From Saccostrea echinata (lineage: Eukaryota): a stretch of DNA of 64,000 nt. The stretch spans positions 1,364,001-1,428,000 of the forward strand of contig NW_026889801.1 in the NCBI RefSeq assembly GCF_033153115.1, written 5' to 3'. Numbering within the stretch: the first letter of the stretch is position 1; every line of letters begins with the position of its first letter. This document shows positions 2,334 through 58,359 of the stretch, one piece after another. Under the pieces are notes generated by a model. That model ran no database searches, was not told the origin of the DNA, and saw only the letters and a program-made list of their open reading frames with translations. The position numbers were made by a program, and so were the translations under genes.

Positions 2334-3404
2334 ATGAAGCACGCTATGAGTTAAGCGCTAGGCCACCTTAATTTATTTTCTGTTTAAAGTCTTTCTATAC
2401 TTACAGACAACAGTGGTCAAATATATAACTCAACTTGACTCATATGACATTGATTCGAAAAATATGGACATTGTAAGTCAATATTTGAATCAGGAAAAGA
2501 TCATAAGAATAGCACTGGTGAAAAATGTACACTCAGTTATAAAGGAAATGGTCGACCTGAAACAAAGTATGGAGACATAGAAAATATCACAGCAGAAAAC
2601 TGACTTAGAGGTGACAGCATTGCAAGAAGAGGGAAACGAACTGAAATGTGAAAATGAGAAACTTGAGCTTGGAAACAGAAGGTATAGTGAAATATTCTTT
2701 ACAGTCAGAGAAAACTTCACTGAAATGGATGAACACATTCCTGAGTTTGAAGAAATTGAGGATAAAAGGGAAGATTTTGAGAAAAAACACCAGTAACATA
2801 CCTGGAGACTTGTAAGTTGAGATTCGATATCTCTCAGTTACTTTTCTTGATCTGAATAAAGGCGCCTTGAAAATATAGACAAGAATATTCCTGCATCGAT
2901 AGAGGGAAAATATTATATTTATTAAACAAACATGAATACTTCCCTTGAATTTTCGAAAAATGATTTACATGTTTCTAGCGAAAAATATCCGTAATGAATC
3001 TAGAAACTCTTAGAATGCAGTGATATTTTCAGGCACGTAGCAATGGGGGGGGGGGGGCGGGTGCCCCCCCCCCCCCCACTGTTTCCATTTAAATGTGAAT
3101 TGACCGGTTGGTCCTCCCACTTTTTGTTGTACAAATAGTAAAATAAGGGTTTTGTAGTAGTGTATGAATAAAATTTGGTACTGAAAGAAGTTGGAACCTA
3201 CCTACTCCCCCCCCCCCACACACACACACACCCACACCACACACACAAAACACGAAAAGGATTTTCGAGTTTGGACAATTTTTTTTTTTTTTGCCTGTCA
3301 AGTTTTTTTTTCAGGTAGGTTGAATTTTTTTTCTCTGGCTGCCTCCCTCCCCCCCCCCCCACACCTTTCAAAAACGATGCTACGTCCCCGATCTTCATTT
3401 TTTG
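2334..3404 (+). pseudogene. C1qDC copy 1, exon 1 relic (signal peptide + coiled coil); no downstream exons found
   Basis: Homologous to exon 1 of copies 2-5 (ATGAAGCAC start, NQEKIIRIALVKNV, TALQEEGNELKCENEKL, terminal TTTG|gtaagc donor at 3404/3405). TAA at codon 7, further stops and frameshifts, and a MITE at 3030-3390. Confidence 0.9.
3030..3390. mobile_element. Poly-G/poly-C MITE (CAGG termini, 5-bp TSD) inserted in the copy 1 exon
   Basis: TIR caggcacgtagca / tgctacgtccccg; flanks atttt / atctt; paralogues read gtatcttcaatgtttg uninterrupted at this site. Confidence 0.85.
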
Positions 3405-5056
3405 GTAAGCATTCCTTTATATTATGTGACTGCAGCATCCCTCTAGAATTCTGTACCTTCATACTTTCAATCATTTCCAACTGTGCACACTCTCAAAAAC
3501 ATCTTAAAGCCCATCTTTTTACGGTGGCATTTGGTTAATTTTTGTGATCGACTTCGGCCGATCACAGTTGATTCCAGGTGAGGCATCCTGCGGGTTTAAC
3601 TGTTTGCGCGCACATTAAGCCCTGCACTACTTGCAGTGCGTAATGTGTGCGTAAGCAAAGGCTTACGTAACTAACTTTTATTATCAGTTAGAGAGTATAA
3701 ACCAAGTAACATTACGGCTGCAGCAGGGAGACGCAGTATGGGTCATACTGTTACTACATCATTTTGGTACAGGATACTACACATACATTGACGCTCCTGC
3801 CACCACGTTCTCTGAATTTCGTATTTTAAATATATGACTTTGTGTAGTATGAAAACTAGAACATAGACTGTATACCTATCGGAATGGTGTTTATATCCAA
3901 TTAAATTGAATTAGATATAAGTAATTACGTTTTATGTATATTATAAGCTCTGATGTTCAACTTGCTTAACCTATGAACATTTGTCTTAACGTTAATTTTG
4001 TGAAAGTGTTAGTTTTCGAATTGAGTTTTAGATATTGATATTAATTAAAAGTATTGAAATAAGGTAATTTTTGCATAAACAATTAATAAAGCTAGATGAT
4101 CAAATTTGAATCCAGATATAAAATAAAATCGTGCTTGTTGGATCAAGTGGCAGGCCGGGGTTTAATTCCTTTAGGGGGTTAATTCACTAGTATCACATAT
4201 GAAAATTTTCATTATCTTCGATTTTTGTTTAAGGAAAAAAACTGCAACAATATATACAAAAGAAGTTACTTTATGGGTTCTTTTATCACAGCAAAATCAT
4301 GTGATTTGGAGCGCCAAAATTATTAATAATGGGAAGCCAAATTATTTTCCATTAGTTTGATCCAACTTATCAAACTATAGGAATCTATATTGGGAAATCA
4401 CAGGCATTCCTTTGCTGTATTCAAGATTTAATAATTATTCTAAACAGATCCTTAGAACAACATCTAAATTCGTTAGATACCTCTTCCCATTGCTATAATA
4501 AATTCTCCCAGTAAATTAAGAATTATTTTTGAGAGATCCTCTTTTAAAAAATAATGTTCTCGAGGAGCATTACTTCTCGAGTCTTTCTTTATTCGAGATT
4601 TTTTCATAAAATTGAAACTAAACAAATATAGGCCCTAGAGATGAAGTCCAATTTTAAGGTCTTACATTAATATTCAAGCATGTTCCTTCTAAAACAAATA
4701 TCAAATTTTCATGTCATAATTAATACGATAAAAATTTGTTATCGTAATTTATCTATAATGCACTGAGTTGATTCCATGCGATGCACCCGGCAATATAAGA
4801 AATTGATCATACATTAAGTGATGGACTTCTTTGTGTGATACGCAGATTCCTCTATTTTTATAGTAGGCTCCCGCCGGGGAGGATTGATTCCACCTGAGGT
4901 ATTTGACGAATTTAATTGTGTGTGTGTAAATAAAGCTACGAATTACTTTATTTACTACGTACTGAGACCTCGTGGAAATTTAACATTACATGAGAAGTTA
5001 ATTATGCTTTTATATTGTTTCAGGGCGTACAAACTGACATTTTCTCCATGTGCGGC

Positions 5057-5229
5057 CGGTCACGGTAACCTATTGGTAGGGCGTTGCTTCCTGATGGGGA
5101 GTCCCGGGTTCGATTCTCGTTTGCCGCGCGGCGTCATACCTAAGACGTTACAAAGGTAGTGACTGTTCCTTCGCCAAGCGCTCGGCACTAGACGTGAAAG
5201 TCACAGGTCTTTCGGATGAGAGCTTAAAC
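5057..5229 (+). mobile_element. tRNA-derived SINE, 5' half
   Basis: B-box ggttcgattc; body matches the reverse complement of the SINE at 10215-10565 (ctgttccttcgcca..cgctcggcact..gtgaaagt..ggtc.ttcggatgaga); truncated where the CACCCCTA repeat begins. Confidence 0.75.
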
Positions 5230-5970
5230 ACCCCTAGTAATGTGTTCAGAACCTTTTATTTTTCGATGTTTTGCAAATTATAATACCCGAGGAGTTCGCA
5301 GTAGCTCTGGCAAGATTTAGCGAGACTACAACGATGTAAGGTAAATTTTTCACGAAAATATGGCTAGGAAGTGACTAGCACGCGGAGACATGGTAAACAG
5401 AAAAGTCATGTTGCGTTTCAGTTTTCATCACTGTATAATATAAGTACAAAGTAGAAATGTACTTCAATCTCTATTGAATTCATTCAAACTTCAATAAGTA
5501 TTCTTTATAACATTATTTTCTTCAGTTTTCTGTTCAAGTTTCTTTTTCGACAAACATATTTGCATGGGAAGTGTAACTATTTTTTGGTGTCAGATTAGCA
5601 AATAAAGTACCAATATGACTTAAACTGACAAATCAGCTGAAAGACTCGAATTGCATTATGGTTTACTACGGATACTACAGGAATTATATGCTTGGAAAAA
5701 ATCAAATCTACAAGCGATCGGAAAGGCACAATGAAATTTTTTTTTCCATGCATTTCGTAGGCGAAAAGCAATATGTCCAAATTTATTCTATCATTTCCAT
5801 GCTCGAAAGTGGTTTTTCGCAGTCCATTTAATATCGGATCGTACATTGACCTGAATCACGTGTTCGAAGTAAAATGTAAATATGTAGTTTTCCAGTTAAC
5901 GTTGTTACTCATTAAACGATTGGTCAATTGTTCGTGGTAAGATTCGCTGTGCGCATTAATACATGTAACA
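5230..5970 (+). repeat. Interspersed repeat starting CACCCCTA, copy A (probable DNA-transposon end)
   Basis: Colinear similarity with 11497-13340 (cacccct..atgtgttc.gaaccttttatttttcgatg; gaggagttcgcagtagctctggca; attgacctgaa.cacgtgttcgaagtaaaatgtaa; ctgtgcgcattaatac). Confidence 0.8.
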
Positions 5971-57277: not shown

Positions 57278-57510
57278 ATCGACGACAATATATGCCGATC
57301 TTGACTGTACATATTGTCGCTGACGACAATATGTGCTGGTGCTTGACTGTACATTTTGTCGTCCAATATGCAGGAGGAAAATGAGGCTCGTCTCGGTACA
57401 TATTGTCGCCGGCGACAATATGTACCGATGGACGACAATATGTGCAGTGAGGGTAGGTACATATTGTCGCCGTCGACAATATGTACAAAACGACAATATG
57501 TACCGTCACA
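57278..57510. repeat. Cluster of direct and inverted gacaatatgt/acatattgtc motifs (probable transposon subterminal array)
   Basis: About ten copies of the motif in alternating orientation, ending gacaatatgtaccgtcaca. Confidence 0.75.
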
Positions 57511-57943
57511 AACCCACTTCTCCGATTCCATACTTCCAACTTTATATTGAAGTGCTTAAAATATGTATGCTTTTAAACTAAATTTATTTTTTATGTAAAC
57601 TTATTATGTATTCTATCACATGACTTTAATATTAATGGGAATAACATAGGTTAGCACACTCTATATTGAATTTAGTCTGGTCACCTGACTTATATGGGTT
57701 CCAATGTAAAACGTTTTGCAATAACTTTAATAGGGCTCCAGTTGAATGATAAAAATCTAATACATTTTATTTCTAAAGTTGCTTTAGTCATTTATTATAT
57801 CTAAAGAATTATAACTGATGGAAGTTTATGTAATTTGTAATACATAAAAACATAAGGATATGATATTAAATAGATAGGATATTTAGTTGTCCTGTACGAT
57901 TTCTTTTTACAAACGACTTTATTCCACTCTTAATGTATTATAG

Positions 57944-58359
57944 ATTTGCCGAATAGTGTATCTGTAGCCTTCACTGCTGGGGTGAGGTTAAGGAGTAGTT
58001 CCTGGAGCGGCGGGATATTGGTGTTCGACAAAGTTATCAACAACGTAGGAGATGGGTATAATCTGTCCAATGGAATATTTACCGCGCCCACTGGCGGGAA
58101 CTATATGTTCTATGTCAGTATCCAAAGTGATAGTAACAATGCAGATATTTGGATAGACATTGTGCTAAACGGATCTAGTAAGGCCCGAGCAATCGCGGAA
58201 GTGTTTAACAGCAACGTTGGCTATGAAACAGGTACAAACATGGTGACATTACGACTTAAGCAAGGGGGTCAGGTTTGGATCAAACATAACCACGGTAAAG
58301 GTTATTACACCCAATTAACTGACGCCCCTATAACAACATTTTCTGGATTCCTCATATAA
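57944..58359 (+). CDS. Intact, divergent globular C1q exon (copy 5 / orphan head)
   Basis: ttatag|AT TTG CCG.. phase-1 acceptor; VAFTAG..LVFDKVINNVGDGYN..GIFTAPTGGNYMF..LKQGGQVWI..TTFSGFLI*; no stops or frameshifts. Expression unproven. Confidence 0.8.

What the first reader, a model, noticed from the sequence alone, without database searches (positions are those of the whole stretch)
2334..58359. Tandem C1qDC array built from phase-compatible stalk, neck and head cassettes: candidate combinatorial immune-receptor locus
Seen: five stalk exons (three open), three neck exons and four C1q head exons on one strand. Every donor and acceptor is phase 1, so any stalk could be spliced in frame to any downstream neck or head. 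All four heads are intact while damage falls on stalk and neck exons. Known: bivalves have greatly expanded C1qDC families that act as secreted pattern-recognition lectins and trimerise through coiled coils. Inference: the locus may generate extra recognition diversity through exon skipping, cross-unit splicing or heterotrimers. Shared intron phase is also expected from plain tandem duplication, so this is a hypothesis only.
Basis: partly seen in the sequence, partly recalled or inferred. Interest (0 to 1): 0.75.

Follow-up and report, generated by a model that had tools for sequence, protein, structure and literature searches.

The report
Oyster C1q lectin tandem gene cluster
This is an ordinary row of five duplicated oyster immune-lectin genes, two of them broken, and not a shown mix-and-match receptor locus, although database gene models of related oyster clusters hint that swapping the sugar-binding head by splicing may occur and deserves a long-read test.

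Summary
The exons and coordinates are real. The window is Saccostrea echinata DNA (RefSeq proteins map letter for letter). Each unit begins with its own start-codon and signal-peptide exon and ends with its own stop exon. Units 2-4 show matching stalk and head divergence, as whole-gene duplication predicts. Phase 1 at the stalk donor is family-wide (32 of 37 read-through gene calls), so it is inherited and not a sign of combinatorial design. None of the 5 RefSeq models lying wholly in the window joins canonical exons of two units. This is a cluster of secreted coiled-coil + C1q genes (sC1q-like type II), as described for oysters. Two leads remain. Head H4 is older than its dead stalk S5, so it is an orphan. 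In paralogous clusters, 12 of 16 multi-isoform RefSeq loci from six oyster species put different heads behind one stalk, PGRP-LC style; mis-mapping or mosaic alleles could equally explain this. No RNA run was listed, so splicing is untested. The scan's earlier notes held nothing similar.

The parts
2334..3404 (+). S1: stalk exon, pseudogene (several frameshifts and stops; donor kept at 3404)
3032..3388 (.). Insertion in the 3' end of S1, with ends that match as an 11-nt inverted repeat at 10 of 11 (MITE-like; ends read by eye)
3654..3828 (+).
7489..8173 (+). S2: open first coding exon (signal peptide + coiled-coil stalk; RefSeq start at 7477); lacks the conserved EVRYLS block through a 21-nt deletion
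9348..9466 (+). N1: neck exon with a 1-nt deletion; skipped in RefSeq model XP_061195982.1
9663..10066 (+). H1: C1q head, last exon with stop
18959..19628 (+). S3: open stalk exon, sister of S2; two 21-nt deletions relative to S4
25893..26012 (+). N2: intact neck exon (120 nt); derived donor 9 nt upstream of the N3-type donor, shared with N1
26191..26594 (+). H2: C1q head, sister of H1
31982..32693 (+). S4: open, most consensus-like stalk exon
39021..39149 (+). N3: intact neck exon (129 nt) ending in NKC like relatives; donor GTATTT
39471..39874 (+). H3: C1q head
43396..44118 (+). S5: stalk pseudo-exon (start ATA, three frameshifts, two stops); sister of S4
57944..58359 (+). H4: open C1q head with no neck upstream; ortholog of the first head of S. 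cucullata LOC134229550; older than S5
62407..62518 (+). Exon of a further C1qDC model (P0130) whose neck and head lie beyond the window; a similar exon follows the H4 ortholog in S. cucullata

Best explanation
A birth-and-death tandem cluster of five separate sC1q-like type II genes. Each unit is its own gene: exon 1 (signal peptide + about 170-residue helical stalk), optional exon 2 (a 40-43-codon neck, phase 1 at both ends) and exon 3 (gC1q head + stop). Units 2-4 can encode secreted proteins (S2>H1 skipping the broken neck, S3>N2>H2, S4>N3>H3). Unit 1 is dead, and unit 5 is a dead stalk in front of an orphan head. Shown: anatomy, phases, lesions, fold, relationships. Inferred: the chains trimerise through stalk and head and act as secreted lectin-type recognition proteins (from the family literature, not tested). 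Also inferred: diversity comes from gene number, head divergence and unequal crossing-over. The shared phase matters mainly at DNA level, because a crossover in any intron gives an in-frame stalk/head mosaic gene, as unit 5 appears to be.
For: 5 stalks pair with 5 heads in strict order. S2, S3 and S4 have their own ATG and hydrophobic leader. All five stalks carry a CAAT[CT]T motif 75-97 nt upstream (background 0.12 per 100 nt), and S3 and S5 share 390 nt of upstream sequence at 66%. S2+S3 are sisters (SH-aLRT 98), H1+H2 are sisters (87), and N1+N2 share a derived donor. Synonymous differences of stalks and heads agree for units 2-4: 0.29/0.33, 0.43/0.42, 0.46/0.38. Phase 1 is family-wide: of 37 stalk-only read-through gene calls, 32 have Gly at the exon end, 1 has Arg (also phase 1) and 4 stop short. 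None of the 5 RefSeq models wholly in the window joins canonical exons of two units, and none is named an isoform. No docking-like complementarity was found: one 13-nt A/T-rich match among 6 x 7 region pairs. Same-strand tandem clusters of type II genes with conserved splice sites are the norm in C. virginica (PMC6835236).
Against: No transcript was seen. The RefSeq models here look weakly supported (S4 read through into its intron, S3 cut at its 5' end, non-homologous first exons put on N3 and H4), so their silence on cross-unit joints is weak evidence. H4 has no lesion while S5 has 5 plus a lost start (P about 0.056 if both decayed together). 12 of 16 multi-isoform loci in paralogous clusters swap heads. 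H1 and H3 have no canonical poly(A) hexamer within 590 nt of the stop, although variant hexamers are present. Trees were quick IQ-TREE runs without bootstrap.
Confidence: 0.8

Rival explanations
1. Limited 3' cassette splicing at this locus: the orphan head H4 (or the neck+head beyond the window) is used as an alternative last exon by S4-N3, giving one stalk two heads, as PGRP-LC does with its PGRP domains.
For: H4 is open with an intact acceptor while S5 is dead (P about 0.056). H4 did not duplicate together with S5: synonymous difference S4-S5 0.36 (0.28-0.43) against H3-H4 0.69 (0.57-0.83). One-stalk/two-head RefSeq loci exist in the same species (LOC133189975, LOC133185494, LOC133201560). 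No canonical poly(A) hexamer until +675 after H3.
Against: H4 has 3 of 38 conserved columns changed, including Asp>Gly in the GDxVW motif; 118 of 134 relatives have 2 or fewer, which suggests decay. The joint would be an 18.8-kb intron that skips H3 and S5. A recent deletion joining S5 to H4 explains both the missing neck and the intact H4. RefSeq does not model this joint.
Confidence: 0.1
2. Full combinatorial locus: any stalk splices to any downstream neck or head, giving up to 21 in-frame products from S2-S4, N2-N3 and H1-H4.
For: 21 in-frame cis products are formally possible. Fully mixed RefSeq isoform sets exist in paralogous clusters: S. echinata XP_061176735/6/9/40 and S. cucullata XP_062590532-6.
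Against: Heads are terminal exons and stalks are first exons, so mixing needs read-through across whole genes. There are no spare cassettes (5:5). Phase and lesion pattern are uninformative. No pairing elements were found. Stalks and heads of units 2-4 diverged together.
Confidence: 0.04
3. Protein-level mixing: chains from different units assemble as heterotrimers. This can hold together with the best explanation.
For: gC1q domains form homo- or heterotrimers (PMC10672478). The stalks are long helices with heptad pattern.
Against: The stalks differ in length by whole heptads and are only 59-64% identical, and S2>H1 lacks the neck, so registers differ except perhaps between units 2 and 3. Nothing was tested here.
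Confidence: 0.2

Closest known systems
Bivalve sC1q-like type II C1qDC genes in tandem clusters (Gerdol, Greco, Pallavicini 2019, PMC6835236)
   Same: Signal peptide + coiled coil + C-terminal C1q domain, no collagen; same-strand tandem array; conserved splice sites between copies; unequal crossing-over as the driver.
   Different: This subfamily has a long stalk (about 415 aa in all, RefSeq 'multimerin-2-like') and a symmetric neck exon that can be skipped. Two of five units are pseudogenes and one is a stalk/head mosaic. The paper parts read (1-3 of 6) do not discuss alternative splicing.
RefSeq 'multimerin-2-like' proteins of Saccostrea, Ostrea and Crassostrea/Magallana (for example XP_061195982.1, XP_061195794.1, XP_061176735.1)
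   Same: Same protein family; the first two are encoded in this window.
   Different: The names are automatic. Vertebrate EMILIN/multimerin proteins have an N-terminal EMI domain (PMC3342094, abstract start in listing); Pfam finds none in these stalks.
Drosophila PGRP-LC 3' variable cassettes (PMC6191721)
   Same: What the head-swapped RefSeq isoforms of paralogous clusters would work like: one shared N-terminal part with tandem alternative recognition domains as last exons.
   Different: PGRP-LC has one 5' part and docking/selector RNA pairings. This window has a 5' part for every head, and no such pairing was found.

Membership tests
sC1q-like type II C1qDC | C-terminal globular C1q domain (PF00386) | tested here: met
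   4 of 4 full heads above the Pfam cut-off; model of S2>H1 matches gC1q structures, Foldseek E 2e-12, TM 0.82 by target
sC1q-like type II C1qDC | N-terminal signal peptide | tested here: met
   Hydrophobic leader in S2, S3 and S4 (Kyte-Doolittle 11-mer maximum 2.00, 1.89, 1.44; S4 only just above its internal maximum of 1.34) and N-terminal helix 3-23; no dedicated signal-peptide predictor was available
sC1q-like type II C1qDC | Coiled-coil tail instead of collagen | tested here: met
   Continuous helix, residues 48-216, block pLDDT mostly 76-96; heptad a/d enrichment up to 0.77; weak coiled-coil Pfam hits and no collagen family
sC1q-like type II C1qDC | Secretion, trimer formation and carbohydrate or microbe binding | not testable with these tools
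   Inferred from PMC6835236 and PMC10672478 only
3' variable-cassette splicing (PGRP-LC type) | One shared 5' part followed by several alternative 3' cassettes | tested here: not met
   5 stalks for 5 heads, alternating; only H4 lacks a working stalk of its own
3' variable-cassette splicing (PGRP-LC type) | Transcripts joining one 5' part to different cassettes | not testable with these tools
   No RNA run was listed; the RefSeq models in the window show none
3' variable-cassette splicing (PGRP-LC type) | Competing docking/selector RNA pairings in introns | tested here: inconclusive
   blastn-short of 600 nt behind 6 donors against 600 nt before 7 acceptors gave one 13-nt A/T-rich match; no cross-species DNA was available to test conservation
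EMILIN/multimerin (vertebrate) | N-terminal cysteine-rich EMI domain | tested here: not met
   No such Pfam hit in S2-S4

The most novel reading that the evidence does not exclude
The oyster long-stalk C1qDC subfamily uses alternative last-exon splicing to put different C1q recognition heads on one coiled-coil stalk (a bivalve counterpart of PGRP-LC). The 12 head-swapping RefSeq loci in six oyster species would be real examples, and this window would contribute through its orphan head H4. Probability is for the family-level claim of real, abundant head-swapped transcripts; for this window alone about 0.1.
Probability: 0.25. Interest if true: 0.7.

Novelty: new member of a known kind. Interest (0 to 1): 0.3.

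Why it matters
As it stands, this is one more C1qDC cluster among hundreds of such genes per oyster genome. It is a clean test bed all the same. Its exons differ at the junctions (stalk ends by 4-6 of 20 nt), so reads can be assigned more reliably than in the younger clusters. If the head-swapped isoforms of paralogous clusters are real, bivalves would add splicing to gene duplication as a source of recognition diversity, which the papers found here do not describe. If they are artefacts, RefSeq isoform sets for this family are merged paralogs, and gene counts and expression studies built on them are off.

Tried and rejected
No whole genome is held for this window. RNA test: no RNA holder was listed for 25850-33000; this says nothing about expression, and no reads could be laid. 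The metagenome scan with S4 found no confirmed locus among 288 pattern matches, so no relative's DNA was seen, only proteins. My first reading that N3 had lost its donor was wrong: relatives end the neck in NKC/NRC, so N3 is ancestral and N1/N2 are derived. A neck remnant between S5 and H4, or further stalks or heads on either strand: none above noise. A signal-peptide exon for the 62407 exon within 58360-62400: none passed a crude filter. Conserved orthology of the two alternative heads between S. echinata LOC133189975 and S. cucullata LOC134233381: not resolved (107-112 of 132 identities all round; open fork). Logan transcript-like proteins as independent witnesses of mixing: 4 of 5 could be scored; one matches a single gene in both parts (P0195) and three have no close match. 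The careful stalk tree did not finish, so the quick tree was used. No complex prediction was sent, because gC1q trimers would pass by likeness to solved structures. Earlier-findings look-ups returned nothing relevant.
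Full report
Observation. All listed donors and acceptors are canonical and at the stated positions. Translation and profile searches on both strands give five stalk exons, three neck exons and four full heads on the + strand. The heads are Pfam C1q. The order is S1-H0, S2-N1-H1, S3-N2-H2, S4-N3-H3, S5-H4. S1 has at least four frameshifts and several stops. S5 has lost its ATG and has three frameshifts and two stops. 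N1 has a 1-nt deletion. Damage does not spare heads (1 of 5 against 3 of 8, p=1.0).

Identity. Of the 120 listed homologs of S4 (171 found), three map letter for letter, junction codons aside, to the window. Two are named S. echinata RefSeq proteins, XP_061195982.1 (S2>H1) and XP_061195794.1 (part of S3>N2>H2). The third is S4 read into its intron. A search with H4 added two more models in the window (a 5-residue exon >N3>H3, and an unrelated exon at 48497-48655 >H4) and one that starts at 62407 and leaves the window. None of the five models lying wholly in the window joins canonical exons of two units. Three or four of them look poorly supported, so this is weak evidence. The folded S2>H1 model has a leader helix, a 169-residue helix and a beta-sandwich that matches gC1q domains such as cerebellin-1 and caprin-2. 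This is the sC1q-like type II architecture of PMC6835236 (I read parts 1-3 of 6: abstract, introduction, results, discussion, most methods). That paper reports 262 type II genes among 476 C1qDC genes in C. virginica, 62% of all tandemly duplicated, mostly on one strand, with conserved splice sites in a cluster it examined.

Is the shared phase special? No. Gene calls on raw genomic contigs read the stalk exon into its intron, and a phase-1 donor after G then gives Gly. Of 37 such stalk-only calls (the window's own included; two neck-bearing proteins were left out), 32 show Gly at the exon end, one shows Arg, which is also phase 1, and four stop before the exon end (counted by eye). Their nearest spliced relatives include Ostrea and Crassostrea/Magallana proteins, so the phase is old and shared by the family.

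Units duplicated whole. S2 and S3 are sisters (98) and share loss of the conserved EVRYLS block. H1 and H2 are sisters (87), and N1 and N2 share a donor 9 nt upstream of the ancestral one (quick trees, SH-aLRT only). Synonymous differences agree between stalks and heads for units 2-4. All five stalks keep a CAAT[CT]T motif 75-97 nt upstream; its likeness to an initiator element is recalled, not tested. The 21-nt deletions in S2 and S3 each remove one heptad, which keeps the coiled-coil register (inference). Unit 5 is the exception. S5 is closest to S4 (pS 0.36), whereas H4 is far from H3 (0.69) and is the ortholog of a head that has its own stalk and neck in S. cucullata LOC134229550 (99). The simplest reading is a deletion or unequal crossover that joined a stalk to an older head and removed the neck. 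H4 is still open (P about 0.056 if it decayed with S5), but it carries 3 changes in 38 conserved columns, more than 118 of 134 relatives.

I fetched cluster members for 30 of the homologs, choosing mostly those named 'isoform', so this is not a census. They cover 16 multi-isoform RefSeq loci; grouping by locus is partly inferred from accession runs and X numbers. In 12 of 16, different C1q heads (63-91% identical) follow an identical N-terminal part: S. echinata LOC133185493, LOC133185494, LOC133189975, LOC133201560; S. cucullata LOC134252108, LOC134236474, LOC134233381; O. edulis LOC130046434; C. virginica LOC144625114; C. gigas LOC105345560 and 'paramyosin' X1/X2; C. angulata LOC128182828. 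Two of these sets mix stalks, necks and heads freely. The other four loci show a first-exon swap, a neck-less form (only X2 seen), a 3-residue donor shift and a 1-residue difference. For LOC133189975 no second stalk on that contig appeared among the 120 listed hits, which fits one stalk with two heads.

Evidence against taking these at face value. In five of six pairs compared in those clusters, neighbouring stalks are 88-98% identical (one pair 74%), and necks are often near-identical, so short junction reads can be placed on the wrong copy. Near-identical stalks also carry different heads in separate single-isoform records: P0020 against P0016/P0017 on another contig, P0067 against P0069, and XP_022324130.1 against .2 (stalk 99%, head 80%). 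This points to mosaic alleles, recent copies or unstable annotation. Chimeric RefSeq models are a documented problem (PMC12220653; abstract start in the listing and 12 of 29 matched passages; it does not mention oysters or C1q). The 587-aa two-head model P0165 at the orthologous locus looks like such a fusion (inference). I had only proteins, no exon coordinates or reads.

Mechanism. Most likely (0.8) each intact unit is transcribed and spliced on its own and gives a secreted coiled-coil C1q protein. Binding of microbial sugars and trimer formation are taken from the family literature (PMC6835236; PMC10672478 and PMC4346834, matched passages only). Same-phase introns let recombination reshuffle stalks and heads in the germ line. 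Use of H4 as an alternative last exon (0.1) and full combinatorial splicing (0.04) remain untested because no RNA run was listed. The working analogy for head swapping is PGRP-LC (PMC6191721; abstract and introduction read), but the window fails that system's defining layout.

Novelty. Searches listed no title or abstract start describing head-swapped splice forms of bivalve C1qDC genes; 'splic' does not occur in the review PMC10672478. The library lacks most subscription journals, including, from recall, earlier C1qDC surveys of C. gigas, and no supplements were read, so absence from print is not established. Verdict: a new member of a known kind, interest 0.3. The family-level splicing lead has probability 0.25 and interest 0.7 if true.

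Noticed in passing
S. echinata XP_061176735/6/9/40, XP_061181413/4, XP_061193342/3; S. cucullata XP_062590532-6, XP_062574642/3; C. virginica XP_078331317/8; C. gigas XP_034332410-3; C. angulata XP_052707541/2 (proteins P0022-24, P0028, P0045, P0155 and others): RefSeq isoforms that put different C1q heads, sometimes different necks, behind an identical stalk in 12 of 16 multi-isoform loci examined; real splicing, mosaic alleles or mis-mapping not told apart.
   Followed up: partly
P0197 / P0196 (C. virginica XP_022324130.1 and .2): Two versions of one RefSeq accession have 99% identical stalks but 80% identical heads.
   Followed up: partly
window 9466, 26012 and O. edulis XP_056013571/2 (P0156, P0056): The neck donor 9 nt upstream of the ancestral one, which drops the Cys before the head, is fixed in N1 and N2; a matching 3-residue-shorter isoform is annotated in O. 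edulis.
   Followed up: partly
window 62407-62518: Coiled-coil-like exon of a different short-stalk C1qDC type; the same exon follows the H4 ortholog in S. cucullata P0165, so gene order is conserved. RefSeq joins it to a neck and head beyond the window.
   Followed up: partly
window 46015-46811, - strand: Reverse-transcriptase fragment (Pfam RVT_1, E 3.1e-8 for 46542-46811) inside the long S5-H4 interval.
   Followed up: no
window 35829-37131, - strand: Two ORF pieces that read like a decayed DNA-transposon gene (likeness recalled; no Pfam hit at E 0.01), in the S4-N3 intron.
   Followed up: no
window 23911-24186, 30228-30496, 49438-49908, 53873-54725: Arrays of 146-nt and 155-nt units, probably internal repeats of mobile elements.
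   Followed up: no
window 53219-53668 and 59462-59907; 5229-5779 and 11497-12039: Dispersed repeats of 450-570 nt at 77-85% identity.
   Followed up: no
window 25334-25476, 41318-41450, 41544-41752: Three assembly gaps (485 N); too short as written to hide a stalk or head exon, but true gap sizes are unknown.
   Followed up: no
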